Positions 2,523 through 52,026 of a stretch of 64,000 nt of DNA are shown here, in pieces. Source of the DNA: a bacterium (GTDB taxonomy: Bacteria; Patescibacteriota; Minisyncoccia; Phycocordibacterales; UBA9973); assembly GCA_027484965.1 (NCBI GenBank), contig JAIXRY010000006.1, positions 130,101 to 194,100 on the forward strand, written 5' to 3'. The stretch's first letter is position 1; each line of letters begins with the position of its first letter. Under the pieces are notes generated by a model. It was not told the origin of the DNA. It did no database searches and was given only the letters and a program-made list of their open reading frames with translations. Made by a program: the position numbers and the translations under genes.

Positions 2523-2903
2523 CTATTTCTTAGACTTTTTTGGTGAGGCTACAACACCTTTCATTATATTCTTCACTTGTTGGGCTCCGCGTTTCCAAAG
2601 AGAACGAGTTTTGTCTTGGTTTGTGGTTATTTCTCTATAAAGTGAATCTTCTACTCCATCAATCGCAGAATACAAATCATCTCTTTCTACAACTGTATAA
2701 ATTTTTGAACCTTTATATTCTAGAGATACTTCTGCGCGGAATATATCACCACTTTTATGATGATCTGTAGTCTTTCCAATTTCAACATATACAGGAATTC
2801 CTTTTTGTATAATAAATTTTTCTATACTTGAAATTCTCTTTTGTACGTAGTCTCTGATTGGATCTGTGAGTTCGATACCTGTTGCCTTAATGATAATATT
2901 CAT
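2523..2903 (-). CDS. hpf: ribosome hibernation promoting factor / sigma-54 modulation protein family
   Basis: MNIIIKATGIELTDPIRDYVQKRI... typical HPF/RaiA N-terminus and size. Confidence 0.8.
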   Translation of the reverse strand: MNIIIKATGIELTDPIRDYVQKRISSIEKFIIQKGIPVYVEIGKTTDHHKSGDIFRAEVSLEYKGSKIYTVVERDDLYSAIDGVEDSLYREITTNQDKTRSLWKRGAQQVKNIMKGVVASPKKSKK

Positions 2904-2956: not shown

Positions 2957-4360
2957 TTAAATAGTTTGAACAATCATTGTGTTCGTTGTACCAGGCACAC
3001 CAAATGGAGCTCCAAGAGTTATAACTATTTTTTCACCAGATTTTGCAATTTCCTCTTTTTTGATATAGTTTTTTACTGTTTTCATTGCATCGTCAACAGA
3101 TTTACCTATCTTTATAAATACAGGATAAACACCATAACAAAGAATTAATTGACGGGAAATATTTTCATTTTCTGTAAAAGCATATATAGGCTGTGTAGGA
3201 CGATGACGAGAAATAATACAAGCTGTACCCCCTGAAGCAGTAAGAACAGCAATAGCTTTTGCGTTTATATCTTCAGCATTATGTACAACAGAAGAACACA
3301 CAGAGTCAACAACATTATTTATGTGAACTTCAGCTCTTTTGTGAGTATCAAAAACACTTTCTGTATGGATAGCGACGCGAGACATAAGAGATACTGTTTC
3401 AATAGGATATTCACCTAAAGCTGTTTCTTCAGAAAGCATTACAGCATCAGTACCATCAAAAATAGCATTAGCAATATCAGAAACTTCTGCGCGAGTAGGT
3501 ACAGGACTATGTATCATAGATTCGAGCATTTGTGTTGCTGTAATAACGGGCTTACCCACATGATTACATTTACCAATAATCATTTTTTGAACATAAGGTA
3601 CTTGTTCTGGGCCAATTTCAATAGCTAAATCTCCACGAGCAACCATTATTCCATCAGAAACTTCAATAATTTCATCAATACAAGCAACAGCTTCTGGAGT
3701 CTCTATTTTTGCAATTATTTTTTGAGTTCCCTTTTTTGCATCAATGATTTTTCTCAAATCAAGAATGTCTTTCTTTGTGCGAACAAAAGACAGAGCGAGA
3801 AAATCTGCATTTTGAGATATAGCCCATTCTGCATCTTCTTTATCTTTTTTTGTTAGAGCACTGATTTTAAGATTTGCATTTGGAATATTTACTCCACGGC
3901 GAGATTTTGTTGTACCACCAACAATAACCTTTGTTATTATTTCTGTACCTTTTATATCTACAACTTCGAGCTTTTTCTTACCGTCGTCAAGCATTATTAT
4001 ACATCCAACTTTTATTTCTTTTTCAAGATTTTTGTAATTAATATAAACCTTATCTTTTGTTCCAATACATTTTTCTGTAGTTAGAATAAATTTCTGACCA
4101 ACAACAAGCTCGATTGTTTCAGTAGAAAAATCACCAATACGGATTTTTGGACCAGAAAGATCAACTAAAATCGCAAGAGTTTGTTTTGTTTTCTTTTCTA
4201 CAGACTTTTTTACATCCAACGTTTTTGAATGTGTCACGTGGTCACCATGACTCATATTCAAACGAAGGACATTTAAACCATTCAAAACAAGACTACTCAT
4301 TATTTCAACATTCTGAGTCGCAGGACCTATTGTTGCTACTATTTTTGTTTTTTTCATCAT
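2957..4360 (-). CDS. pyk: pyruvate kinase (full length, with B lid domain)
   Basis: MKKTKIVATIGPAT..., [44 protein letters not shown] motifs. Start moved to the MMKKTK Met because a TACAAT -10 box lies inside the longer ORF-track extension. Confidence 0.9.
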   Translation of the reverse strand: MMKKTKIVATIGPATQNVEIMSSLVLNGLNVLRLNMSHGDHVTHSKTLDVKKSVEKKTKQTLAILVDLSGPKIRIGDFSTETIELVVGQKFILTTEKCIGTKDKVYINYKNLEKEIKVGCIIMLDDGKKKLEVVDIKGTEIITKVIVGGTTKSRRGVNIPNANLKISALTKKDKEDAEWAISQNADFLALSFVRTKKDILDLRKIIDAKKGTQKIIAKIETPEAVACIDEIIEVSDGIMVARGDLAIEIGPEQVPYVQKMIIGKCNHVGKPVITATQMLESMIHSPVPTRAEVSDIANAIFDGTDAVMLSEETALGEYPIETVSLMSRVAIHTESVFDTHKRAEVHINNVVDSVCSSVVHNAEDINAKAIAVLTASGGTACIISRHRPTQPIYAFTENENISRQLILCYGVYPVFIKIGKSVDDAMKTVKNYIKKEEIAKSGEKIVITLGAPFGVPGTTNTMIVQTI

Positions 4361-4380
4361 AATAAATATATTGTAGCACA

Positions 4381-4410
4381 AAAAATAGCACTTTTTTAGT
4401 GCTATTTTTT
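4381..4410 (-). terminator. hairpin aaaaatagcac-tttttt-agtgctattttt, terminator of the NNNW-repeat gene
   Basis: Inverted repeat plus U-run on minus strand directly after stop at 4422. Confidence 0.55.
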
Positions 4411-4421
4411 GTGCTCATTTT

Positions 4422-4796
4422 TTACCAAGTACGATAATTTGTACCCCAAGGCATTACTCCTTGACCCCAAGGAGTTGGAGTATATAAGAATGGAGACGGT
4501 GTTCCATATCCATAAGGATTTACATAAGCAATAGGAGTATAAGAGTTCCAGTTATTATTCCAGTTGTTGTGCCAGTTGTTGTTCCAGTTGTTGTTCCAGT
4601 TGTTGTTCCAGTTGTTGTTCCAGTTGTTGTTATAATTTATAGGATAATAACCAGAATATGTTGTATCAGAATAACTAAAATTAAGGCCCACATTAAAAGA
4701 ACTACCTCCACCATAGTAATATTGCGCTTTTGCACTAGGTGCAAAAATACAAAGTGACATAACTATAAAAAGTGATCCAAAAATAAACTTTTTCAT
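4422..4796 (-). CDS. secreted low-complexity protein with (NNNW)x9 tandem repeat and G/Y/P-rich ends
   Basis: Signal peptide MKKFIFGSLFIVMSLCIFAPSAKA, then NNNWNNNWNNNW... encoded by a 12-nt DNA tandem repeat. Confidence 0.6.
   Translation of the reverse strand: MKKFIFGSLFIVMSLCIFAPSAKAQYYYGGGSSFNVGLNFSYSDTTYSGYYPINYNNNWNNNWNNNWNNNWNNNWHNNWNNNWNSYTPIAYVNPYGYGTPSPFLYTPTPWGQGVMPWGTNYRTW
4547..4632. repeat. tandem 12-nt repeat (ccagttgttgtt)x~7 inside CDS 4422..4796
   Basis: Directly visible perfect tandem copies at 4568-4630. Confidence 0.9.
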
Positions 4797-4907: not shown

Positions 4908-5912
4908 ATGAAAACAATATTTTTTGAGACATCAAAAGAAGATCAAGAAAAGTATAGAAAATTATTGCCAGAAAATAATATTACATTTTACGAAGAAAAA
5001 ATTAGTATAGACAACATTTCCCTCGCAAAAGAAGCTGACATTATATCTATATTTATTAATTCCGAAATTAAAAAAGAGATTCTAGATGAACTGCCGAATT
5101 TGAAATATATTGTTAGTCGCTCTACAGGAGTAGATCATATAGATAAAAACTATTGCAAAGAAAAAAACGTTTTAATTTCAAATGTACCTACATACGGAAG
5201 TGTTACTGTTGCAGAATTTACATTTGGATTAATTCTAAGTCTTTCTAGAAATATTTTTAAAGCAACAGATCAAATAAAAGAAACAAATCATTTTAATATA
5301 TTTAATTTAAAAGGTTTTGACTTAAAAGGGAAAACTATAGGTGTGGTAGGTACTGGCCGTATAGGAAAAAATGTTATAAAAATTGCAAAAGGATTTGATA
5401 TGAATGTCATTGCATATGATTTATACAGAGATGAGAAGTGTGCAGAAGAAAACAATTTTCAATATACAACTCTTGAAGATATAGTTTCAAAATCTGACAT
5501 AATCACCCTACACGCTCCATACACAAAAGAAAATCACCACTTAATAAACAGTGCGGCGATTTCAAAAATGAAGAAAGGTGTTTACATAATAAACACAGCA
5601 CGTGGAGAACTTATAGACACAAGTGCTCTTCTTGAGGGTATTCAAAATGGCACAATAAAAGGAGCTGGTTTAGATGTGTTAGAAGGTGAAAGAATTCTTA
5701 AAGAAGAATTTGAAATTACAAAAAATGGAAATATACATACAGTAGACTATAAAACACTCCTAGAAGATCACATTCTTATTAATATTCCAGAAGTAATAAT
5801 TACGCCACATATCGCTTTTTATTCAGAAGAAGCCGAGAATGAAATAGTTCACACAACAGTAAAAAATATTACTAGTTTTAAAAATGGATCAACAGAAAAT
5901 CTTATAAAATAA
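4908..5912 (+). CDS. D-isomer-specific 2-hydroxyacid dehydrogenase (hydroxypyruvate/glycerate dehydrogenase-like)
   Basis: NAD-binding GVVGTGRIGKNVIKIAKGFDMNVIAYD, catalytic-domain layout of the D-2-HDH family. Confidence 0.8.
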   Translation: MKTIFFETSKEDQEKYRKLLPENNITFYEEKISIDNISLAKEADIISIFINSEIKKEILDELPNLKYIVSRSTGVDHIDKNYCKEKNVLISNVPTYGSVTVAEFTFGLILSLSRNIFKATDQIKETNHFNIFNLKGFDLKGKTIGVVGTGRIGKNVIKIAKGFDMNVIAYDLYRDEKCAEENNFQYTTLEDIVSKSDIITLHAPYTKENHHLINSAAISKMKKGVYIINTARGELIDTSALLEGIQNGTIKGAGLDVLEGERILKEEFEITKNGNIHTVDYKTLLEDHILINIPEVIITPHIAFYSEEAENEIVHTTVKNITSFKNGSTENLIK

Positions 5913-5922
5913 ATAAACTCTT

Positions 5923-7197
5923 ATGAATAATAAATGGATTAAGAATTACAATGATTTAGCAGTAACAGAAAATAGAAAAATTGCTCTATCAATTGCAGAA
6001 GCTGGATTGGATGCAATAAACACAGAAACTGTTATTAATCGTTCTATAAAAATAGAAAACAACACCTTACTTGTTAAAGATATTTCTTTTGACCTTTCTA
6101 ATTATAAAAAAATCAAGGTTGTTGGTTTTGGAAAATGTGCTTGTGAGGCAGTTATAGCACTAGAAGGAATATTAAAAGAAAAGATTGATGAGGGTGTTGT
6201 TGTGGGGTTAACAAAAAAAGTTTGCCCTAGAATAAGAACTTTTGCAGGTACTCACCCTAGACCTTCTGGAGCAAACGCAGAATCAGGAAAAGAAATTTTT
6301 GAATTAGTAAAAAGCGCCACAGAAGACGACCTTATTATTGTTATTGTTTCTGGAGGAGGTTCAGCTTTATTGTGCTACCCAGAAAGTGAGTGCGTTCAAG
6401 GAGAAAAATTATATGACGCATTCCTAAAAACAGGTAAGACGATAAATGAATTAAACGCAATAAGAAAACATATATCACTATTAAAAGGTGGCGGATTAGC
6501 AAAAGTTGCATATCCTGCAACAGTTATAGGACTTATATTTTCAGATGTGCCTGGAGACAATTTTGATGAAGTGGCTTCTGGTCCAACATACAAAGACATC
6601 TCAACAAAAGAAGATGTTGAAGAAATAATAAAAAAATATGAATTAGGAGAATTTGATTTACTAGAAACCCCAAAAGAAGATGTGTACTTTGAAAAAGTCA
6701 CAAACTTTGTTTTGGTCTCAAACAAAACAGCGCTGGAAGCAATGTCAAAAAAATCTTTAGAATTAGGGTTTCATTCTCACGTAATATCATCTGAACTATA
6801 TAGCAATGTTGATCATGCTTTAGATTTAATATTTACAAACAAAAAAGACAAGTCAGTAATACTTGCAGCTGGAGAACCAAAATTAACAATAACAAAAAGT
6901 GGAGGTAGTGGCGGAAGAAGTATGTTTATGGGTCTAAAATCAATATCTAAGATTGATAATGATTCTGTGTTTATTCCATTAGCGTCTGACGGTATGGACA
7001 ATTGCCCTGGCGCAGGTGTTGTTATAGATAAAAACACAAAAGAAAGAATTTTAAATAATGATATAGATATTCAAAAATATATAGATGATTTTGATGCTTA
7101 TAATGCATTCAAAACTATCGGAGACATAATAGATACAGGTCCAACAAATGCAAATGTTTCTGATTTAATGATTTTATTTACAAACAAACATGAATAA
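5923..7197 (+). CDS. glycerate kinase, MOFRL family (glycerate 2-kinase type)
   Basis: VSGGGSALL and C-terminal ASDGMDNCPGAGVV motifs typical of MOFRL/TtuD-type glycerate kinases. Confidence 0.7.
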   Translation: MNNKWIKNYNDLAVTENRKIALSIAEAGLDAINTETVINRSIKIENNTLLVKDISFDLSNYKKIKVVGFGKCACEAVIALEGILKEKIDEGVVVGLTKKVCPRIRTFAGTHPRPSGANAESGKEIFELVKSATEDDLIIVIVSGGGSALLCYPESECVQGEKLYDAFLKTGKTINELNAIRKHISLLKGGGLAKVAYPATVIGLIFSDVPGDNFDEVASGPTYKDISTKEDVEEIIKKYELGEFDLLETPKEDVYFEKVTNFVLVSNKTALEAMSKKSLELGFHSHVISSELYSNVDHALDLIFTNKKDKSVILAAGEPKLTITKSGGSGGRSMFMGLKSISKIDNDSVFIPLASDGMDNCPGAGVVIDKNTKERILNNDIDIQKYIDDFDAYNAFKTIGDIIDTGPTNANVSDLMILFTNKHE

Positions 7198-8407
7198 TTA
7201 TCCAATAACAAAAATAGTTTCAGAGGAAATTTTAGATTCTCGAAATAACCCCACAATCGAAGTCACTGTTTACACAGAAAATGCAAGTGATTCTTTTTCT
7301 GTTCCTTCTGGGGCGAGTACTGGAACACATGAGGCTTGCGAACTCCGAGATGAAGACAAAAAAGGTGTAAAGAATGCTATAAAAAATATTAATGAAATAA
7401 TATCACCCGCACTTATAGGACAAAATATTTGTGACCAAAAAAATATAGACAGATTGATGTGTGAATTAGACGGAACCACTCAAAAAACAAAGCTTGGAGG
7501 AAATGCAATTATTGGAGTTAGTATTGCATGTGCAAAAACAGCTGCAAAATCAAACAATCTTGAAGTTTATGAATATCTAAAAACTCTTTCTAATATTAAA
7601 GCATCTAGAACAAATCCCCTACTTTATATGAATCTTATAAATGGAGGTAAACATGCAAAAAATGATTTGGCATTTCAAGAGTATCATATTGTTCCATTTA
7701 CAGAAGATACGGAAGAAGCCGTAGAGATAGGTATAAAAATACAAGATTCTCTAGAAAAAATAATTGAAAATGAATTAGGTAAAGAAGAGCTTGCGCTTGG
7801 TGACGAGGGCGGATTTGCTCCTCATGTAGAGAACATCAAAAAACCTCTAACTTATTTTGCTCAAGCGATAAAAGAAAATAATTTAGAAGACAAAGTAAGA
7901 TTAGCGCTAGATGTTGCTGCCTCATCTTTTTATAACGAAGAACAATATTTTGTAGATGGAAAAAATATATCAAAAGAAGAACTTTTTGATATATATAAAA
8001 ACCTTATACAAGAATTTAATTTACTTTCAATAGAAGATCCTTTCAATGAAGAAGATTTTGAAGGTTTTAAAATGATTAAAAATGAAACTGGTATTTATAT
8101 ACTTGGAGACGATTTAACTGTTACAAATAAAGATTTATTACAAAAAGCAATCAGTAGTGACAGTATAAATGCAATGATAATAAAGCCAAATCAAATAGGC
8201 ACACTATCTGAAACACTAGAAACAATGAAACTTGCAAGAGACAACGATGTTGAATTGGTAATAAGTCACAGAAGTGGAGAAACGGACGATGACTTCATAG
8301 CTGATCTTGCTTATGCATTTGGATGTTTTGGAATAAAATCAGGATCACCAAAGAAAAGTGAGAGAATGATTAAATACCAAAGATTAATCAACATATCTCA
8401 AAAATAA
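7190..8407 (+). CDS. eno: enolase
   Basis: [38 protein letters not shown]..., SHRSGETDD motif; overlaps upstream gene by 8 nt (operon). Confidence 0.92.
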
Positions 8408-8408
8408 A

Positions 8409-9206
8409 ATGGAAAATTCAAGAACACAAATAATAGCAACTATTGGTCCAGTATCTAAAAATATATCTACATTAAAAGAAATGATTTCAAACAATATGGA
8501 TATAGCTAGACTAAATTTCTCTTGGGGTACACACAATGATCACAAAGAATCTATAAACAACATAAGAGAGGTTGAAAAAAGTCTAAGCAAGAAAATTCCT
8601 ATAATACAAGATCTTTCTGGACCAAGAATACAAGAAGAAAAAGAACATACTTACAAAAGAGATGTATTAGAAATAATAACTGAAAAAGATTTGTATGATT
8701 TAAAATTTGGAATAGAACAAAATATTGAGTATGTCGCAATGTCTTTCGTTGGGTGTAAAAACGACGTAGAAGAACTTAGAAATCATATAAAAAAATTTGA
8801 AGGAAATCAAAAAATTATTTCAAAAATAGAGAGGCAAGTAGCCTTTGATAACATTGATGAGATAATCGAAGTCTCTGATGGAATAATGATAGCTCGAGGA
8901 GATCTTGGGAATGAAGTACCTTTAGAACAAATACCTTTTATTGAAAAAAGTATTATAGAAAAATGCAATGAAGCTGGTAAACCTGTCATAGTAGCAACTC
9001 AAATGATGCTCTCAATGACTGAAAACACTCTCCCTACACGCGCAGAAGTAACAGACGTATCATTTGCTGTTATAGAAGGGACTGATGCTGTAATGCTATC
9101 TGAAGAGAGTGCTTCAGGAAAACACCCTGTCGAAGCAATAATAATGATGGAAAAAATACTGAAAGAATCAGAAAAACATACTGAAAGAAAAATAATAAAA
9201 CTATAG
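8409..9206 (+). CDS. pyruvate-kinase-like protein, A (TIM-barrel) domain only (265 aa), lacking B lid and C-terminal domains
   Basis: IIATIGPVS...[46 protein letters not shown] retained; only ~20 aa where the ~100-aa B domain should be, and protein ends right after the barrel. Confidence 0.7.
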
Positions 9207-9215
9207 TAGTCAAAA

Positions 9216-9258
9216 TAAAAATCCCCTCTTTTAAATAATAATTGAGGGGATTTTTTAT
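9216..9258. terminator. bidirectional rho-independent terminator (atcccctc...gaggggat + T-run)
   Basis: 8-bp GC-rich stem flanked by A-run and T-run, between convergent genes. Confidence 0.7.
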
Positions 9259-9264
9259 TACTAA

Positions 9265-9381
9265 CTATTTTGCTTTTTTTGCTGCTCTTTGGGCCAACAT
9301 TTCCTTTTTAATCGCAAGACGTTTTGCAGGCTTGTGAGTATTAGTCTTTTTTGGTCCAAGTGAATTTTTTCTTTTTCCCAT
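9265..9381 (-). CDS. small basic protein (38 aa; MGKRKNSLGPKKTNTHKPAKRLAIKKEMLAQRAAKKAK), possibly ribosome-associated
   Basis: Short ORF not in ORF track; very Lys/Arg-rich; followed by terminator. Confidence 0.3.
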   Translation of the reverse strand: MGKRKNSLGPKKTNTHKPAKRLAIKKEMLAQRAAKKAK

Positions 9382-37576: not shown

Positions 37577-39370
37577 ATGGACAAAAACAATTTTGACGCA
37601 GAAAAATTAAATTATATTATCTACTGTCGTAAATCAAGTGATACAGAGGATAAACAAGTTCAATCACTTGAGACTCAACATAGAGAATTAACAGATTATG
37701 CATTACGCAATAATCTTAATGTTGTAAAAATTATTCAAGAAAGTAAAAGTGCTTTCACTGTTGGTAGACAAGGTTTTGAAGAAATGCTTAAACTTATAAA
37801 GAGTAAAAAAGCAAATGCAATTTTAGTTGTTCGAGCAAATCGTATTTCAAGAAATGTTATGGATTCTGCATATATTATTTCTCTTATGGATGAGAAAATG
37901 TTGATGTATGTTAGAACTCCTTCATCTTCATGTTATACCTGTTTCGGTAACGATAGATTTATGCTTGGTCTAGAATTTATTATTTCCAAGAAAGATAGTG
38001 ATGATAAAGGTGAAGCTGTAAAAGAAGGACAAAAAACAAAAGCGTTAAAAGGAACCCCTCACGGATTAGCTTCTTTAGGCTTTCTTAATGATCGATCAGA
38101 AGAAAAAGGAAATAGAAAATGGTTAGTAGATCCAGAGAGACTATGGAAAATAGAGAAGCTTTTAAAAATGTTCCTGACTGGTACATACTCTGCTGGTAAA
38201 CTACATAGATACGCGATAAATGAGCTCAAATTAACCACTGTTAGTAGAAAAAGAAGTGGTGGTGCTCTAATAGTAAGTTCCCGTATTTATGAAATTTTAA
38301 AAGATCCTATCTATGCAGGATTCTTTGTTTATGGAGAAAAAAGATACGAATTAGATAAAAATTTACCTAGACTTATAACAGAATCTGAACACAATAAAAT
38401 TAAACAATTACTCTCTAGAAATAACATTCCTAAATCACAACACCATGAAGCTACATATTCTGGATTTATACAGTCTGCTGAAGGAAACTTTATGGGGCCT
38501 GATACTAAGTTTCAAGTAATATGTGATTGTAAGAAAAAGTTTGCATACAGAAATAAAAATCACTGTCCTCAATGTGGAATTAACATTGATCAAATGGAGA
38601 GTCCTAAATACTTGGATTACACTCACTACTACAATGTTAAGAGAAAGAAGGCTTCTCTACCATATAAGTCTATTTCAGAAAAAGATATTCTAAAAGAAAT
38701 GGTTGAATATATTGACCAAAATTTACAGTTTTCCAACGATCTCTTGGAGTGGTCTAAAAAAAATATACACGAAATGAAAGACAAAGAAGTGAGCGAAAAA
38801 GTTTTAATATCAAAAGACAGAGAGAACAGAAAAGAAGAATATGAATTAAAGAAATCTAAATTGAGAGGGTTACTTCGTGATGATAAAATTATAGAAGACG
38901 ATTATAAAATTGATCTAGCACTATTGAATAAAGAATATGCTGATATAAACATAGATGCGCAGAGTGTCGATTGGTATCAAGAGATGATGGATATCACTGA
39001 TTTAACTCAAGGTGTTATAGAAGTATTACAAAACGGCTCCTTTCAAGCAAAAAGAGATATACTTTCAAAGCTTGGTTCGAACCTAGTATGGAACGACGAA
39101 AAACTTAGTATTTACAACAGAAAATCAATAGAAGTACTTGTGAAAGGGATAAAAGGTATTAAGTCAGAATTTCCAAAGTTCGAACCTAAATTAAGCTTTG
39201 CAGAACAAGGCTTAAATGAAAAAACTAGCGAGTTTTCGCCAGTTTTTTCTACAATGCTCCATCTAGTGGACAAGTTCAGAACTGCTAATTGGACTGGTAT
39301 TAAAAGTGATTTACAGTTTAGTGGTGTTTTAGAGCTGTTAACTTCAGAATCAATAGATTGCTTACTTTAG
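37577..39370 (+). CDS. large serine recombinase (resolvase catalytic domain + recombinase domain + zinc ribbon)
   Basis: YIIYCRKSSDTEDKQVQSLETQ catalytic-Ser motif; CDCKKKF...HCPQCG zinc ribbon; 597 aa. Confidence 0.8.
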   Translation: MDKNNFDAEKLNYIIYCRKSSDTEDKQVQSLETQHRELTDYALRNNLNVVKIIQESKSAFTVGRQGFEEMLKLIKSKKANAILVVRANRISRNVMDSAYIISLMDEKMLMYVRTPSSSCYTCFGNDRFMLGLEFIISKKDSDDKGEAVKEGQKTKALKGTPHGLASLGFLNDRSEEKGNRKWLVDPERLWKIEKLLKMFLTGTYSAGKLHRYAINELKLTTVSRKRSGGALIVSSRIYEILKDPIYAGFFVYGEKRYELDKNLPRLITESEHNKIKQLLSRNNIPKSQHHEATYSGFIQSAEGNFMGPDTKFQVICDCKKKFAYRNKNHCPQCGINIDQMESPKYLDYTHYYNVKRKKASLPYKSISEKDILKEMVEYIDQNLQFSNDLLEWSKKNIHEMKDKEVSEKVLISKDRENRKEEYELKKSKLRGLLRDDKIIEDDYKIDLALLNKEYADINIDAQSVDWYQEMMDITDLTQGVIEVLQNGSFQAKRDILSKLGSNLVWNDEKLSIYNRKSIEVLVKGIKGIKSEFPKFEPKLSFAEQGLNEKTSEFSPVFSTMLHLVDKFRTANWTGIKSDLQFSGVLELLTSESIDCLL

Positions 39371-50442: not shown

Positions 50443-52026
50443 ATGAAAGCAATAAATATATCAAGAGTATCAACAGAGGAACAAAAAGATAATTCGCCAC
50501 TCGCTCAAGAGAACAGGTTAATTAACTATTGCAAAAGCAAATCTTTTGAGATAATAAAAAATTATAACTTCCAAGAAAGTGCTTACAAGGAAAAGAGAGA
50601 TGAGTTCGATGTTATAGTTGAACATATCCAAGAAGTAGCTAAAAAAGAAAAAATAGCTGTATGTTTTGATAAAGTAGACCGTCTTTCACGAAGTGTGTTT
50701 GATAAAAGAGTTGGAATGCTTTACGAAATGGCTTTAGCAGACAAAATAGAACTTCACTTTGTTTCAGACGGACAGATTATCAATAATCAAATGTCTGCTG
50801 TTGAAAAATTCCAATTTGGTATGAGTCTAGGATTAGCTAAATACTACTCTGACGCTATTGGTGATAATGTAAAAAGAGCATTTGAACAGAAACGAAGGAA
50901 CGGCGAGTGGACAGGAGCGGTCCGTTTAGGTTATTTGAATGTGCAACTAGACGCAGAAAAAAGATTACGTAAGGATATTATTATCGATCCAGAACGAGGA
51001 CATTTGATACAAAAAATGTTTGAGTTGTACGCAACGGGTCAATATTCACTTGAAACTATAAGAAACAAGATGACCGAGCTTGGATTACAAACCCTCAAAG
51101 GAAATAGTTTATCAAAAAGCGGAGTTGAAAATATCCTAAAGGATAGCTTTTACTGTGGAATAGCAATTACAAAAAAGTATGGTTCTTATGCTCATAAATA
51201 CCCTAGATTGATTACAAGAGAACTCTTTGATAAGTGCCAACAGATACGCAATAAACGCAATAATCATAAATCAAAAGCACTCACAAAAAAACAGTATATT
51301 TTTGGTGATGGTTTCTTAAAATGCCATAATTGTGGTTGTTCAATTACCGCAGAAAATCATAAGGGTATAAATTACTATTCTTGTACTAATGCTAAAGGCA
51401 TTTGTAAAAGAGTATATATCACAGAAAAGGACCTTTTGAAGCACATATACGAGGTTTTAGAGCGATTTGAGGGTATTACAGAAGAGGCACAGAATCAACT
51501 CGTATCAGAACTAAGAAAGAACACAGAAAGTGAGGTTGTATTCCATAAAGCACAAATAAGTCGCATACAGACCGATTACAACAATTTGAAAGCAAAACAG
51601 GACAGATTACTTGATGCTTATATTGACCAGAGTATTACTAAGGACATCTATGACAAAAAGCATCAAGAGTATCAAGACCAAATACAAGTACTTGAAATTG
51701 AAATGTCTGAACACTCAAAAGCAGATTACGATTACCAAACTACTGTTGCTACAGTGCTTTCTGTAGCACGCAGAGCAAAAACAATATTTGATAATAGTTC
51801 TGAACCTGCTAGAAAAAGACAGTTTTTGAATTACATACTTCAGAACCCGACTGTAAACGAAAAGAAGCTATATTTTACAATAGCTTCTCCGTTTAATTTG
51901 GTACTAGAATTAGCTAGTACCCCTAACTGGCTCGCTTTGACAGACGATTTCCGAACAATAGATTGGGCAAAAGAATATCCATATCCAACAATAAGTTTGG
52001 GTGAAATTAAAGCTCTGGTTTGTTAA
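50443..52026 (+). CDS. large serine recombinase
   Basis: MKAINISRVSTEEQ catalytic motif, recombinase domain, CHNCGC...C zinc ribbon; 527 aa. Confidence 0.8.
   Translation: MKAINISRVSTEEQKDNSPLAQENRLINYCKSKSFEIIKNYNFQESAYKEKRDEFDVIVEHIQEVAKKEKIAVCFDKVDRLSRSVFDKRVGMLYEMALADKIELHFVSDGQIINNQMSAVEKFQFGMSLGLAKYYSDAIGDNVKRAFEQKRRNGEWTGAVRLGYLNVQLDAEKRLRKDIIIDPERGHLIQKMFELYATGQYSLETIRNKMTELGLQTLKGNSLSKSGVENILKDSFYCGIAITKKYGSYAHKYPRLITRELFDKCQQIRNKRNNHKSKALTKKQYIFGDGFLKCHNCGCSITAENHKGINYYSCTNAKGICKRVYITEKDLLKHIYEVLERFEGITEEAQNQLVSELRKNTESEVVFHKAQISRIQTDYNNLKAKQDRLLDAYIDQSITKDIYDKKHQEYQDQIQVLEIEMSEHSKADYDYQTTVATVLSVARRAKTIFDNSSEPARKRQFLNYILQNPTVNEKKLYFTIASPFNLVLELASTPNWLALTDDFRTIDWAKEYPYPTISLGEIKALVC

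What the first reader, a model, noticed from the sequence alone, without database searches (positions are those of the whole stretch)
4908..9206. Operon encoding a complete glycerate-to-pyruvate ATP-yielding route plus a barrel-only pyruvate-kinase paralog
- Gene order: 2-hydroxyacid dehydrogenase, MOFRL glycerate (2-)kinase, enolase, PK-like. Enolase overlaps the kinase by 8 nt, and PK-like follows 1 nt after.
- This is a self-contained hydroxypyruvate/glycerate -> 2-PG -> PEP -> pyruvate module.
- The operon PK is only 265 aa. It keeps the catalytic A-domain motifs but has no B lid and no C-terminal allosteric domain.
- A canonical 466-aa pyk sits 4.5 kb upstream on the other strand.
- A minimal PK barrel is unusual and may be a PEP-utilising enzyme with altered specificity or regulation.
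Basis: partly seen in the sequence, partly recalled or inferred. Interest (0 to 1): 0.5.

Follow-up and report, generated by a model that had tools for sequence, protein, structure and literature searches.

The report
Lid-less minimal pyruvate kinase cassette
A candidate-phyla-radiation bacterium carries, next to enolase, a conserved 265-residue pyruvate kinase that keeps every catalytic residue but has lost both its lid and its regulatory domain, a stripped-down form of a textbook enzyme that I found described in no paper.

Summary
Four tightly packed plus-strand genes (4908-9206) encode a D-lactate-dehydrogenase-like 2-hydroxyacid dehydrogenase, a DUF4147/MOFRL glycerate kinase, enolase and a 265-aa pyruvate kinase (PK) consisting of the A-domain barrel only. 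A strong hairpin terminator follows.

The mini-PK is not a one-off truncation. The top 120 database clusters are all 258-273 aa, from Paceibacterota/Minisyncoccota genomes. All PEP, Mg2+ and K+ residues are invariant. The B lid is replaced by a ~14-residue loop with its own conserved motif (GPR-x6-H). The otherwise universal nucleotide-site Arg (PKM2 R120) is never Arg, and the canonical His78 is Trp.

Enolase is adjacent or fused in 24 of 26 species-level loci. Fusions join the mini-PK to enolase (both orders), dPGM (both orders), glycerate kinase, and glycerate kinase plus enolase.

Glycerate to pyruvate is ATP-neutral, not ATP-yielding. The dehydrogenase is D-LDH-type and most likely acts after the PK.

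Best reading: a constitutive, unregulated PK hard-wired to a 2-phosphoglycerate-to-pyruvate(-to-lactate) cassette. Activity is untested. I rate it a new variant of a known kind, of moderate-to-good interest.

The parts
4908..5912 (+). D-isomer 2-hydroxyacid dehydrogenase, D-lactate-dehydrogenase type (334 aa)
   Evidence: Pfam 2-Hacid_dh_C 1e-57 and 2-Hacid_dh 7e-28. Best solved relatives are all D-LDH or D-LDH-like, led by 3KB6 at 238 bits over the full length. Arg/Glu/His catalytic motifs and the D-LDH-type VPxYG and PHIAF motifs are present. No NCBIfam equivalog cut-off is reached.
5923..7197 (+). DUF4147 + MOFRL (class II) glycerate kinase, probably glycerate 2-kinase (424 aa)
   Evidence: Pfam DUF4147 1e-59 and MOFRL 1e-19. 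NCBIfam glycerate 2-kinase models score 192-194 bits, below their cut-offs. Solved relatives are PH0495 (1X3L, 189 bits) and the T. maritima putative glycerate kinase (2B8N, 152 bits). Homologues are fused to enolase in P0237 and P0259.
7190..8407 (+). Enolase (405 aa); its start overlaps the kinase stop by 8 nt
   Evidence: TIGR01060 scores 440 bits against a cut-off of 300. Pfam Enolase_N and Enolase_C both hit.
8409..9206 (+). Mini pyruvate kinase: A-domain (beta/alpha)8 barrel only, 265 aa
   Evidence: PF00224 scores 278 bits in two stretches, with no PK_C. TIGR01064 scores 339.5 bits against a cut-off of 306.4. AlphaFold2 gives pLDDT 93 and pTM 0.90. Foldseek TM to PK A domains is 0.87-0.93. 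The 120 top homologue clusters are all 258-273 aa.
8625..8666 (+). Residues 73-86: short loop replacing the ~100-residue B (lid) domain, carrying the family motif GPR-x6-H (R73, Q75, H80)
   Evidence: Alignment to PKM2: query G71-P72 matches G116-P117, and query L87 matches L218 (B domain = residues 116-217 per PMC11973853). R73 is Arg in 24/24 and H80 is His in 23/24 B-less PKs. The canonical Arg column is Arg in 40/40 full-length PKs and 0/24 B-less PKs. Residues 74-81 have pLDDT below 50 and are modelled as a beta-hairpin.
9217..9255 (.). Hairpin flanked by an A tract and a U tract; probable bidirectional intrinsic terminator closing the cassette
   Evidence: RNA fold -19.6 kcal/mol, z = -4.54, 0 of 200 shuffles as stable. 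The pattern scan missed it because its apical region does not fit the scan's simple stem-loop pattern (loop of 3-8 nt).
2957..4381 (-). Canonical full-length pyruvate kinase (A+B+C domains), context gene
   Evidence: PF00224 389 bits in one stretch plus PF02887 116 bits. It is 52% identical to the mini-PK over the C-terminal half of the barrel and 37% over the N-terminal part.

Best explanation
The 265-aa protein belongs to a conserved clade of minimal pyruvate kinases in Paceibacterota/Minisyncoccota (candidate phyla radiation). These consist only of the catalytic A-domain barrel.

It most likely still transfers the phosphoryl group of PEP to a nucleoside diphosphate, giving pyruvate and NTP. 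It would use the unchanged PEP/Mg2+/K+ site and a rebuilt nucleotide site: Trp39 in place of the canonical His, and Arg73 and His80 on a short flexible loop in place of the lid-borne Arg and Lys. Having no C domain, it cannot be switched by the usual sugar-phosphate or AMP effectors, so it would run constitutively.

It is translationally coupled, and in some lineages fused, to enolase and to whichever enzyme makes 2-phosphoglycerate (glycerate 2-kinase here, dPGM elsewhere). In this window the cassette would convert glycerate to 2-PG, PEP and pyruvate with no net ATP, because the ADP made by the glycerate kinase is re-phosphorylated by the mini-PK. The D-LDH-type dehydrogenase would then reduce pyruvate to D-lactate, re-oxidising NADH. 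The regulated full-length PK would be kept for ordinary glycolytic flux.

Shown here: gene content, gene order and its conservation, the domain losses, residue conservation, the fusions and the fold. Inferred: enzyme activity, the nucleotide as acceptor, lack of regulation, the direction and substrate of the dehydrogenase, and co-transcription.
For: - Family membership: above Pfam and TIGR01064 curated cut-offs.
- Fold: confident barrel model superposing on PK A domains at TM 0.87-0.93 and rmsd 1-2 A for the best matches.
- Catalytic residues: R34, N36, D68, K139, E141, D165, S231 and E233 (PKM2 R73, N75, D113, K270, E272, D296, S362, E364) are identical in 24/24 B-less and 40/40 canonical PKs; T197 (PKM2 T328) is Thr in 24/24 and 39/40.
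- The replacement loop is under selection: R73 24/24, H80 23/24, with fixed GPR-x6-H spacing.
- Breadth: 120 of the top 120 homologue clusters are 258-273 aa at 59-89% identity.
- Linkage to enolase: the enolase stop lies within -7 to +5 nt of the mini-PK start in 19 of 26 loci and the two are fused in 3.
- Fusions confirmed by Pfam: ENO-miniPK (at least 7 clusters at 51-100% identity), miniPK-ENO, miniPK-dPGM, dPGM-miniPK, GK-miniPK, GK-ENO-miniPK and GK-ENO.
- L029 encodes enolase, miniPK-dPGM and a D-LDH-type dehydrogenase with no glycerate kinase, i.e. a 3-PG-to-D-lactate operon.
- Dehydrogenase typing.
[quoted passage not shown] 2020, cited in PMC10176505; the paper was not readable here). 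Lactate dehydrogenase is described as common in CPR genomes (PMC5220378).
Against: - No biochemical data exist for any member.
- The Arg that is invariant in canonical PKs (PKM2 R120; 40/40) is absent from every B-less member, and the B-domain Lys is deleted. ADP binding, and exclusion of water from the phosphoryl-transfer site, may therefore be impaired.
- The replacement loop is modelled at pLDDT below 50.
- The genome also keeps a full-length PK 4 kb away, as do L005 and L009. The mini-PK is thus not needed as the only PK and could do something else.
- Monophyly of the B-less clade has only 31/100 NJ bootstrap support.
- The GK-containing fusions with the mini-PK are single observations on short contigs.
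Confidence: 0.6

Rival explanations
1. Changed chemistry. Without the lid and the nucleotide-site Arg, the barrel no longer uses ADP efficiently. It would act as a PEP phosphatase or hydrolase, an oxaloacetate decarboxylase (a known side activity of PK), or a phosphotransferase to a different acceptor.
For: The canonical Arg is lost in 24/24 members, the B-domain Lys is deleted, and the nucleotide-site His is replaced by Trp in 22/24. A full-length PK coexists in the window, L005 and L009, so a second enzyme with the same activity is not obviously needed.
Against: The K+ site residues (N36, S38, D68) are retained; to my knowledge K+ also contacts the transferred phosphate in PK. The proton-relay residues T197, S231 and E233 are also retained. 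New invariant basic residues, R73 and H80, sit exactly where the lid emerged. A PEP phosphatase fused to glycerate kinase and enolase would waste one ATP per glycerate. The GK-miniPK fusion without enolase joins two enzymes whose only shared metabolite is ATP/ADP.
Confidence: 0.17
2. Obligate complex. The mini-PK is active only when docked to enolase and/or glycerate kinase. The partner closes the open active site in place of the lid and hands over PEP or ADP directly, forming a metabolon with a captive nucleotide.
For: Near-universal adjacency and translational coupling to enolase. Repeated independent fusions in both domain orders and to three different partners.
Against: Fusions occur in both orders and to structurally unrelated partners, which argues for co-localisation rather than one defined lid-like interface. 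The AlphaFold2 model of the ENO-miniPK fusion has pTM 0.66 with a low-confidence linker, so no confident fixed interface is predicted; this is weak evidence because only 7 fused sequences were in the alignment. L003 has the mini-PK without an adjacent enolase.
Confidence: 0.15
3. The dehydrogenase is a hydroxypyruvate reductase that feeds glycerate to the kinase, so the cassette runs hydroxypyruvate to glycerate, 2-PG, PEP and pyruvate. This concerns the role of gene 1 only and is compatible with an active mini-PK.
For: The dehydrogenase gene is directly upstream of the glycerate kinase in 14 of 26 loci. In L003 and L022 a glyoxylate/hydroxypyruvate-reductase-type dehydrogenase sits next to the mini-PK. 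2-Hydroxyacid dehydrogenases are often promiscuous (general knowledge).
Against: The window enzyme is closest to D-LDHs (238 bits against 133-162 for glycerate/glyoxylate reductases). It carries the D-LDH-type VPxYG/PHIAF motifs and not the TPGTS/PHIAS motifs of the reductase type. The same D-LDH-type orthologue accompanies ENO plus mini-PK in L029 and L030, where no glycerate kinase is present.
Confidence: 0.3
4. Pseudo-enzyme or regulatory subunit. The barrel is catalytically dead and modulates the full-length PK or enolase.
For: Large domain loss, and coexistence with a full-length PK.
Against: Every catalytic and metal-binding residue is invariant across 24 divergent representatives and 62 close homologues. 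That is not expected for a dead enzyme. By contrast, the second barrel of P0313 is also B-less but has degraded motifs.
Confidence: 0.03

Closest known systems
Canonical bacterial pyruvate kinase (e.g. E. coli PykF, Geobacillus stearothermophilus PK, the window's own 2957-4381 gene)
   Same: Same A-domain barrel, at 45-55% identity over the barrel. All PEP, Mg2+, K+ and proton-relay residues are the same. It passes the TIGR01064 cut-off.
   Different: No B lid: about 100 residues are replaced by about 14. No C-terminal allosteric or tetramerisation domain. The universal nucleotide-site Arg is Gln, the canonical His78 is Trp, and there is a new GPR-x6-H motif.
Engineered lid-deleted E. coli pyruvate kinase (Sugrue et al. 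2020, Eur Biophys J 49:761; known here only from its title as cited in PMC10176505 and PMC9252168)
   Same: A PK without its B domain. [quoted passage not shown]
   Different: That protein is a laboratory construct that retains the C domain. The present family is natural, widespread, also lacks the C domain, and has evolved compensating conserved residues in the replacement loop.
C-domain-less PKs (A+B only, about 340-355 aa; NCBIfam NF005234/PRK06739)
   Same: Natural PKs that have dropped the allosteric C domain. PMC10176505 notes that some isozymes lack the C domain.
   Different: They keep the B lid and the canonical Arg. In my tree they are scattered, i.e. polyphyletic, whereas the B-less forms group together. 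The window protein scores 219.5 bits against a cut-off of 564 for NF005234.
Glycerate 2-kinase to enolase to pyruvate kinase branch of the non-phosphorylative Entner-Doudoroff pathway and of glycerate/serine catabolism (MOFRL kinases of Thermoproteus, Picrophilus, Thermotoga TM1585; from my own knowledge)
   Same: Same three reactions in the same order, using the same MOFRL-type kinase family.
   Different: Here the three genes are packed into one cassette with a D-LDH-type dehydrogenase, use a minimal PK, and in some lineages are fused into one polypeptide.

Membership tests
Pyruvate kinase (EC 2.7.1.40; Pfam PF00224, TIGR01064) | A-domain (beta/alpha)8 barrel scoring above curated family thresholds | tested here: met
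   PF00224 scores 277.9 bits (cut-off 30). TIGR01064 scores 339.5 bits (cut-off 306.4). Foldseek TM to PK A domains is 0.87-0.93.
Pyruvate kinase (EC 2.7.1.40; Pfam PF00224, TIGR01064) | PEP, Mg2+ and K+ binding residues and proton-relay residues (PKM2 R73, N75, S77, D113, K270, E272, D296, T328, S362, E364) | tested here: met
   All are present in the window protein (alignment with construct offset). All are invariant in 62 homologues. Across the 24 B-less representatives they are 24/24, except S38 at 21/24.
Pyruvate kinase (EC 2.7.1.40; Pfam PF00224, TIGR01064) | B (lid) domain inserted in the barrel (PKM2 116-217) that closes over the active site | tested here: not met
   The Pfam match is split, with profile positions of roughly 70-170 missing. 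A 14-residue loop takes their place. The model shows only a short hairpin there.
Pyruvate kinase (EC 2.7.1.40; Pfam PF00224, TIGR01064) | Invariant nucleotide-site Arg of the GP(K/E)IR motif (PKM2 R120) | tested here: not met
   Arg in 40/40 full-length and A+B PKs, 0/24 in B-less PKs; Gln75 in the window protein.
Pyruvate kinase (EC 2.7.1.40; Pfam PF00224, TIGR01064) | C-terminal alpha/beta domain (PF02887) carrying allosteric sites and the tetramer interface | tested here: not met
   No PF02887 hit. The protein ends about 10 residues after the last barrel helix.
Pyruvate kinase (EC 2.7.1.40; Pfam PF00224, TIGR01064) | Catalysis of PEP + ADP to pyruvate + ATP | not testable with these tools
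   Needs an enzyme assay.
Class II (DUF4147 + MOFRL) glycerate 2-kinase | DUF4147 + MOFRL two-domain architecture and similarity to solved or characterised members | tested here: met
   Pfam 1e-59 and 1e-19. 1X3L scores 189 bits and 2B8N scores 152 bits.
Class II (DUF4147 + MOFRL) glycerate 2-kinase | Score above the NCBIfam glycerate 2-kinase equivalog cut-offs | tested here: not met
   194 bits against 550 and 192 bits against 670. These are lineage-specific archaeal models.
Class II (DUF4147 + MOFRL) glycerate 2-kinase | Product is 2-phosphoglycerate | not testable with these tools
   Indirect support only: homologues are fused directly to enolase, whose substrate is 2-PG (P0237, P0259).
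D-lactate dehydrogenase subfamily of D-2-hydroxyacid dehydrogenases | Closest similarity to characterised D-LDHs rather than to glyoxylate/hydroxypyruvate reductases, SerA or PdxB | tested here: met
   The top nine solved relatives are D-LDH or D-LDH-like, at 177-238 bits. Glycerate/glyoxylate reductases score 133-162 bits.
D-lactate dehydrogenase subfamily of D-2-hydroxyacid dehydrogenases | Catalytic Arg/Glu/His plus the substrate-pocket Tyr (VPxYG/S) and Phe (PHxAF); residue roles recalled from L. bulgaricus D-LDH, not from a paper read here | tested here: met
   NVPTYGS, INTARGE, DVLEGE and TPHIAFYS are present. The reductase-type neighbours of L003 and L022 have TPGTS and PHIAS instead.
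D-lactate dehydrogenase subfamily of D-2-hydroxyacid dehydrogenases | NCBIfam D-LDH model cut-offs, and actual substrate preference | tested here: inconclusive
   Best NCBIfam scores are 198-221 bits, below the cut-offs of 356-540. Substrate preference needs an assay.
Enolase (phosphopyruvate hydratase) | Score above the TIGR01060 equivalog cut-off, with both domains present | tested here: met
   440 bits against a cut-off of 300. Enolase_N and Enolase_C both hit.

The most novel reading that the evidence does not exclude
Glycerate kinase, enolase and the lid-less PK form a self-contained machine, sometimes as a single 1092-residue polypeptide, that holds and recycles its own adenine nucleotide. 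The ADP released by the kinase is re-charged by the PK from the PEP that the same carbon skeleton becomes. The assembly would then behave as a net glycerate dehydratase (glycerate to pyruvate + H2O) that uses ATP as a catalytic cofactor. The lid and the allosteric domain became dispensable because partner docking and the GPR-x6-H loop took over active-site closure and nucleotide handling.
Probability: 0.2. Interest if true: 0.75.

Novelty: new variant of a known kind. Interest (0 to 1): 0.58.

Why it matters
Pyruvate kinase is a textbook three-domain, allosterically controlled enzyme, and lid closure is regarded as part of its mechanism. A natural, strongly conserved 265-residue form with neither lid nor regulatory domain would set the minimal catalytic unit of the family. 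Its GPR-x6-H motif and His-to-Trp change would also show how a nucleotide site can be rebuilt.

It matters for metabolic reconstruction too. It suggests how genome-reduced CPR bacteria wire lower glycolysis: a constitutive, substrate-driven module kept alongside, or possibly instead of, the regulated enzyme. Annotation pipelines currently label these proteins simply 'pyruvate kinase', which hides the difference. If the mini-PK is not an ATP-forming kinase, published energy budgets for many Paceibacterota genomes would need revision.

The set of fusions (kinase, enolase, PK, mutase) is also a ready-made natural example of enzyme fusion along a pathway.

Tried and rejected
1. **B lid supplied in trans by a neighbouring small gene.** No such conserved ORF exists. 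The extra 143-aa ORF in L001 has no Pfam hit and is absent from the window. The 1-3 kb inserts between kinase and enolase in L006, L007, L010 and L013 hold an unrelated minus-strand ORF that looks like a dihydroorotate dehydrogenase by eye; it was not scanned against Pfam.
2. **Truncation by assembly or frameshift.** Rejected: 120 independent clusters share the same length and the same deletion boundaries.
3. **Recent duplicate of the resident pyk.** Rejected: the mini-PK does not group with the CPR full-length PK clade.
4. **Genome-wide co-occurrence of mini-PK and full-length PK**, attempted by matching contig-length fingerprints between hit lists. There were no overlaps, so this is uninformative.
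5. **Promoter scan.** 25 sites found against 25.6 expected, uninformative in 30% GC DNA.
6. **P0313 and P0247** looked like mini-PK tandems. They are eukaryote-like double PKs outside this clade; one has a degraded second barrel and the other is fused to adenylate kinase.
7. **Enolase as a fixed lid.** The AlphaFold2 model of the fusion gave pTM 0.66, so no confident interface is predicted. No coordinates are available to inspect.
8. **AFDB Foldseek search.** The library was unavailable.
9. **Literature.** Nine searches found no description of a natural B-less PK or of these fusions. Sugrue et al. 2020 and Schormann et al. 2019 were not held.

Full report
**1. The observation**

The window is about 30% GC. 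On the plus strand it contains four closely packed ORFs:
- 4908-5912, 334 aa
- 5923-7197, 424 aa
- 7190-8407, 405 aa
- 8409-9206, 265 aa

The spacers are 10 nt, an 8-nt overlap, and 1 nt. None of the junctions has an evident Shine-Dalgarno sequence. The genes are linked by stop/start proximity.

Pfam and NCBIfam assign them as follows:
- a D-isomer 2-hydroxyacid dehydrogenase
- a DUF4147 + MOFRL kinase
- enolase (TIGR01060, 440 bits against a cut-off of 300)
- a pyruvate kinase (PK) barrel

The 265-aa PK matches the PK barrel model in two pieces. Residues 87-244 cover profile positions 171-328, and an N-terminal stretch runs up to about residue 75. There is no PK_C domain. A normal PK with barrel, B domain and PK_C lies at 2957-4381 on the other strand.

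No plus-strand terminator-like site occurs inside the block. A hairpin at 9217-9255 (-19.6 kcal/mol, z = -4.5), flanked by an A tract and a U tract, follows the last stop codon. Co-transcription is inferred from this layout and has not been shown.

**2. The short PK is a family, not an accident**

- The 120 best clusters at 90% identity are all 258-273 aa long and 59-89% identical to the window protein. Where they carry a name it is 'pyruvate kinase', from Paceibacterota, Parcubacteria or Patescibacteria.
- A scan of one genome per species found 26 loci with it. They are labelled Paceibacterota, Nomurabacteria, Moraniibacteriota, Yanofskybacteria, Adlerbacteria, Minisyncoccia, or (by automated pipelines) 'uncultured Candidatus Saccharibacteria'. 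The remaining hits of that scan were ordinary Campylobacter PKs picked up by the search patterns.
- An exhaustive HMMER search of 1.84 billion representatives found about ten stand-alone clusters at 50% identity with a contiguous, B-less match, plus several fusion proteins. After those come only normal PKs matched in two stretches.
- PKs of 340-355 aa that keep the B domain but lack the C domain also exist. They are scattered across the tree.

**3. What is kept and what is changed**

HMMER alignments to solved PKs allow a residue map onto human PKM2. The 7L21 construct carries a 19-residue tag, and the resulting numbers reproduce the active-site residues listed in PMC11973853.

| Window protein | PKM2 |
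|---|---|
| R34 | R73 |
| N36 | N75 |
| S38 | S77 |
| W39 | H78 |
| D68 | D113 |
| G71-P72 | G116-P117 |
| L87 | L218 |
| K139 | K270 |
| E141 | E272 |
| D165 | D296 |
| T197 | T328 |
| S231 | S362 |
| E233 | E364 |

PMC11973853 defines the B domain as residues 116-217. That stretch is exactly what is missing, replaced by residues 73-86.

Conservation of the catalytic residues:
- In 62 close homologues all of them are invariant.
- In a broader comparison of 24 B-less representatives against 40 full-length or A+B PKs, R34, N36, D68, K139, E141, D165, S231 and E233 are identical in every sequence of both groups. T197 is Thr in 24/24 and 39/40.

The differences are concentrated at the nucleotide side of the site:
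- The Arg of the canonical GP(K/E)IR motif is Arg in 40/40 canonical PKs and in 0/24 B-less PKs (Gln in 19).
- The residue two positions earlier is Arg in 24/24 B-less PKs, against K/E/R/D in canonical ones.
- A His exactly six residues after that Arg is present in 23/24.
- The canonical His78 is Trp in 22/24.

The rest of the loop is variable in sequence and length.

Assignment of R120, K207 and N75-H78 to ATP binding is from my memory of the PKM2 annotation. PMC11973853 lists Asn75, His78, Asp113, Thr114, Arg120 and Thr328 as active-site residues.

**4. Fold**

AlphaFold2 with a 62-sequence alignment gives a confident (beta/alpha)8 barrel, with mean pLDDT 93 and pTM 0.90. Only residues 74-81 fall below pLDDT 50, and they are drawn as a short beta-hairpin.

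Foldseek against the PDB returns only PKs at the top, with TM (normalised to the query) of 0.87-0.93 and rmsd of 1-2 A for the best matches. Every target chain has at least 394 residues, so no barrel-only PK has been solved.

**5. Genomic context elsewhere**

I searched the window's proteins against ORFs of the 26 species-level loci.
- The order dehydrogenase, MOFRL kinase, enolase, mini-PK recurs in 14 of them. Several others are on contigs too short to judge.
- Enolase ends within -7 to +5 nt of the mini-PK start in 19 loci, is fused to it in 3, lies directly downstream in 1, and lies 139 nt upstream in 1.
- In L006, L007, L010 and L013 a minus-strand ORF that looks like a dihydroorotate dehydrogenase (judged by eye from its motifs, not scanned) is inserted between kinase and enolase.

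The invariant core is therefore enolase plus mini-PK.

A full-length PK lies within 10 kb in the window, in L005 and in L009. In L009 it directly follows the mini-PK. How often the two forms coexist genome-wide could not be determined.

**6. Fusions**

Pfam confirms the following architectures:

| Architecture | Examples |
|---|---|
| enolase-miniPK | L014, L016; at least seven clusters, P0121-P0126 and P0151, at 51-100% identity to each other |
| miniPK-enolase | L024, P0244 |
| miniPK-dPGM (His_Phos_1, with an RHxESEWN motif) | L029, P0242 |
| dPGM-miniPK | P0246 |
| glycerate kinase-miniPK | P0249 |
| glycerate kinase-enolase-miniPK | P0259, 1092 aa |
| glycerate kinase-enolase | P0237 |

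- All of the mini-PK moieties keep the W / GPR / H signature.
- In L085, a 50% GC contig, the dehydrogenase gene overlaps the start of the triple-fusion ORF by 4 nt. This reproduces the window's gene order in a very different lineage.
- The two kinase-containing mini-PK fusions (P0249 and P0259) are single observations on short contigs and need confirmation.
- The enolase fusions are too diverse to be artefacts.
- The kinase-miniPK fusion is notable because the two enzymes share no carbon intermediate, only ATP/ADP.

**7. Single origin?**

A neighbour-joining tree on 263 barrel columns groups all 24 B-less sequences together. They fall outside the clade of CPR full-length PKs that contains the window's own pyk. 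Bootstrap support for the B-less group is only 31/100.

The shared deletion boundaries and derived residues are better evidence for one origin than the tree is. An independent B loss exists in P0313, an unrelated eukaryote-like tandem PK. There the second barrel has lost catalytic motifs, the opposite pattern to the one seen in this family.

**8. The other genes and the pathway**

*Kinase.* It has the DUF4147 + MOFRL architecture of class II glycerate kinases and resembles PH0495 and the T. maritima putative glycerate kinase TM1585. It is below the cut-offs of the two archaeal equivalog models. Its fusion to enolase in other lineages supports 2-phosphoglycerate as the product.

*Dehydrogenase.* Three lines of evidence bear on its role:
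- Its nine best solved relatives are D-LDHs or D-LDH-like enzymes (3KB6, 238 bits, full length). Glycerate dehydrogenases and glyoxylate reductases score 133-162 bits.
- It carries VPxYG and PHIAF motifs, like the dehydrogenases of L005, L011, L023, L027, L085, L029 and L030.
- L029 and L030 contain enolase, mini-PK (fused to dPGM in L029) and this D-LDH type, but no glycerate kinase. A dehydrogenase that travels with the PK when the glycerate kinase is absent is more simply a pyruvate reductase than a hydroxypyruvate reductase.

Against this, L003 and L022 have a glyoxylate/hydroxypyruvate-reductase-type enzyme (2DBQ, 249 bits; TPGTS/PHIAS motifs) next to the mini-PK. Lactate dehydrogenase is described as common in CPR genomes (PMC5220378).

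*Stoichiometry.* Glycerate + ATP gives 2-PG + ADP. 2-PG gives PEP. PEP + ADP gives pyruvate + ATP. The glycerate branch is ATP-neutral, not ATP-yielding. With the D-LDH step the net reaction is glycerate + NADH giving D-lactate + NAD+ + H2O. In the dPGM-linked lineages the same PK step does yield net ATP from 3-PG.

**9. Mechanism proposed**

The most economical reading is an active but unregulated PK.
- The chemistry at PEP is untouched.
- The lid-borne contacts to the nucleotide are replaced by a short mobile loop carrying an invariant Arg and His.
- A Trp sits at a position listed among the PKM2 active-site residues (His78; PMC11973853), which I recall, without having read it here, as part of the nucleotide site.
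- The absence of the C domain removes effector control.

An inference follows. When carbon enters below the upper-glycolytic activators, an effector-dependent PK would be poorly activated. A constitutive PK that is co-translated with enolase and the 2-PG-forming enzyme solves that problem and regenerates the ATP the glycerate kinase has just spent.

The literature gives a precedent for activity without the lid, though only by title (Sugrue et al. 2020, cited in PMC10176505). PMC10176505 describes the B domain as a flexible lid over the catalytic site and notes that some isozymes lack the C domain. I found no paper describing a natural PK lacking the B domain, nor these fusions. The library does not cover most subscription journals.

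**10. Rivals**

- *Changed chemistry* (PEP hydrolysis or another acceptor) remains possible, because the universal Arg and the B-domain Lys are gone and a full-length PK coexists.
- *Obligate partner-dependent enzyme* fits the fusions. It is not supported by the fusion model (pTM 0.66, low-confidence linker), nor by the variety of partners and domain orders.
- *Pseudo-enzyme* is very unlikely given the invariant catalytic residues.

**11. Verdict**

It needs correction on the energy balance, on the role of the dehydrogenase, and on how common and old the short PK is.

Relative to known systems, this is a new variant of a known kind: a PK family member that fails three of the family's structural hallmarks (lid, nucleotide-site Arg, C domain) while keeping the catalytic core.

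Interest is moderate to good. Nothing here overturns biochemistry. But a natural minimal PK with a rebuilt nucleotide site, widespread in a major uncultivated radiation and repeatedly fused to its pathway neighbours, is directly testable and would interest enzymologists and CPR metabolism researchers.

Noticed in passing
window 4422-4796 (-): A 124-aa ORF with a signal-peptide-like N-terminus and an (NNNW)n repeat, encoded by a 12-bp tandem repeat at 4545-4631 (7.2 copies, 93% matches). It has no Pfam hit. It lies between the full-length pyk and the cassette.
   Followed up: partly
window 9268-9381 (-): A 38-aa, very basic ORF (MGKRKNSLGPKKTNTHKPAKRLAIKKEMLAQRAAKKAK) converges on the same hairpin (9217-9255) that ends the mini-PK gene, so the hairpin probably terminates transcription in both directions.
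   Followed up: no
window 2523-2903 (-); L001 8842-9228: An ORF directly downstream of the full-length pyk in the window looks like a ribosome-hibernation factor (S30AE/HPF) by eye; it was not scanned against Pfam. In L001 a gene with a precomputed Ribosomal_S30AE Pfam hit directly follows the mini-PK. This may be a recurrent PK-HPF neighbourhood.
   Followed up: no
window ~16500-52000: A cluster of mobile-element and defence-type genes: a PLD-like protein, a 1189-aa helicase with an MTES_1575 restriction-endonuclease domain, a KAP-family NTPase, a C5 cytosine methylase, and two large serine recombinases (37577-39370, 50443-52026). GC rises to 0.34-0.38 at 52-60 kb.
   Followed up: partly
P0313 (691 aa) and P0247 (1051 aa), from the representative search: Eukaryote-like tandem PKs. 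P0313 has a normal A+B barrel followed by a second, B-less barrel with degraded catalytic motifs (ERGC in place of ARGD), an independent lid loss that looks like a pseudo-domain. P0247 is a PK-PK-adenylate kinase fusion.
   Followed up: partly
L009 9998-13864: Here the mini-PK is immediately followed by a full-length PK (476 aa, PK + PK_C) and then a more divergent enolase. Both PK forms sit side by side in one gene string.
   Followed up: partly
L006, L007, L010, L013 (between the MOFRL kinase and enolase genes): A ~375-aa minus-strand ORF that looks like a dihydroorotate dehydrogenase (by eye, not scanned) is inserted between kinase and enolase in four genomes. It splits the cassette into dehydrogenase-kinase and enolase-miniPK halves.
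   Followed up: partly
L001 6293-6724: A 143-aa ORF with no Pfam hit lies between the kinase and enolase genes in a Nomurabacteria genome. It is absent from the window.
   Followed up: partly
representative search hits P0254, P0292, P0316, P0324, P0362 and similar: PKs of 340-355 aa that keep A+B but lack the C domain are fairly common. They are scattered across the NJ tree, suggesting repeated independent loss of the allosteric domain.
   Followed up: partly
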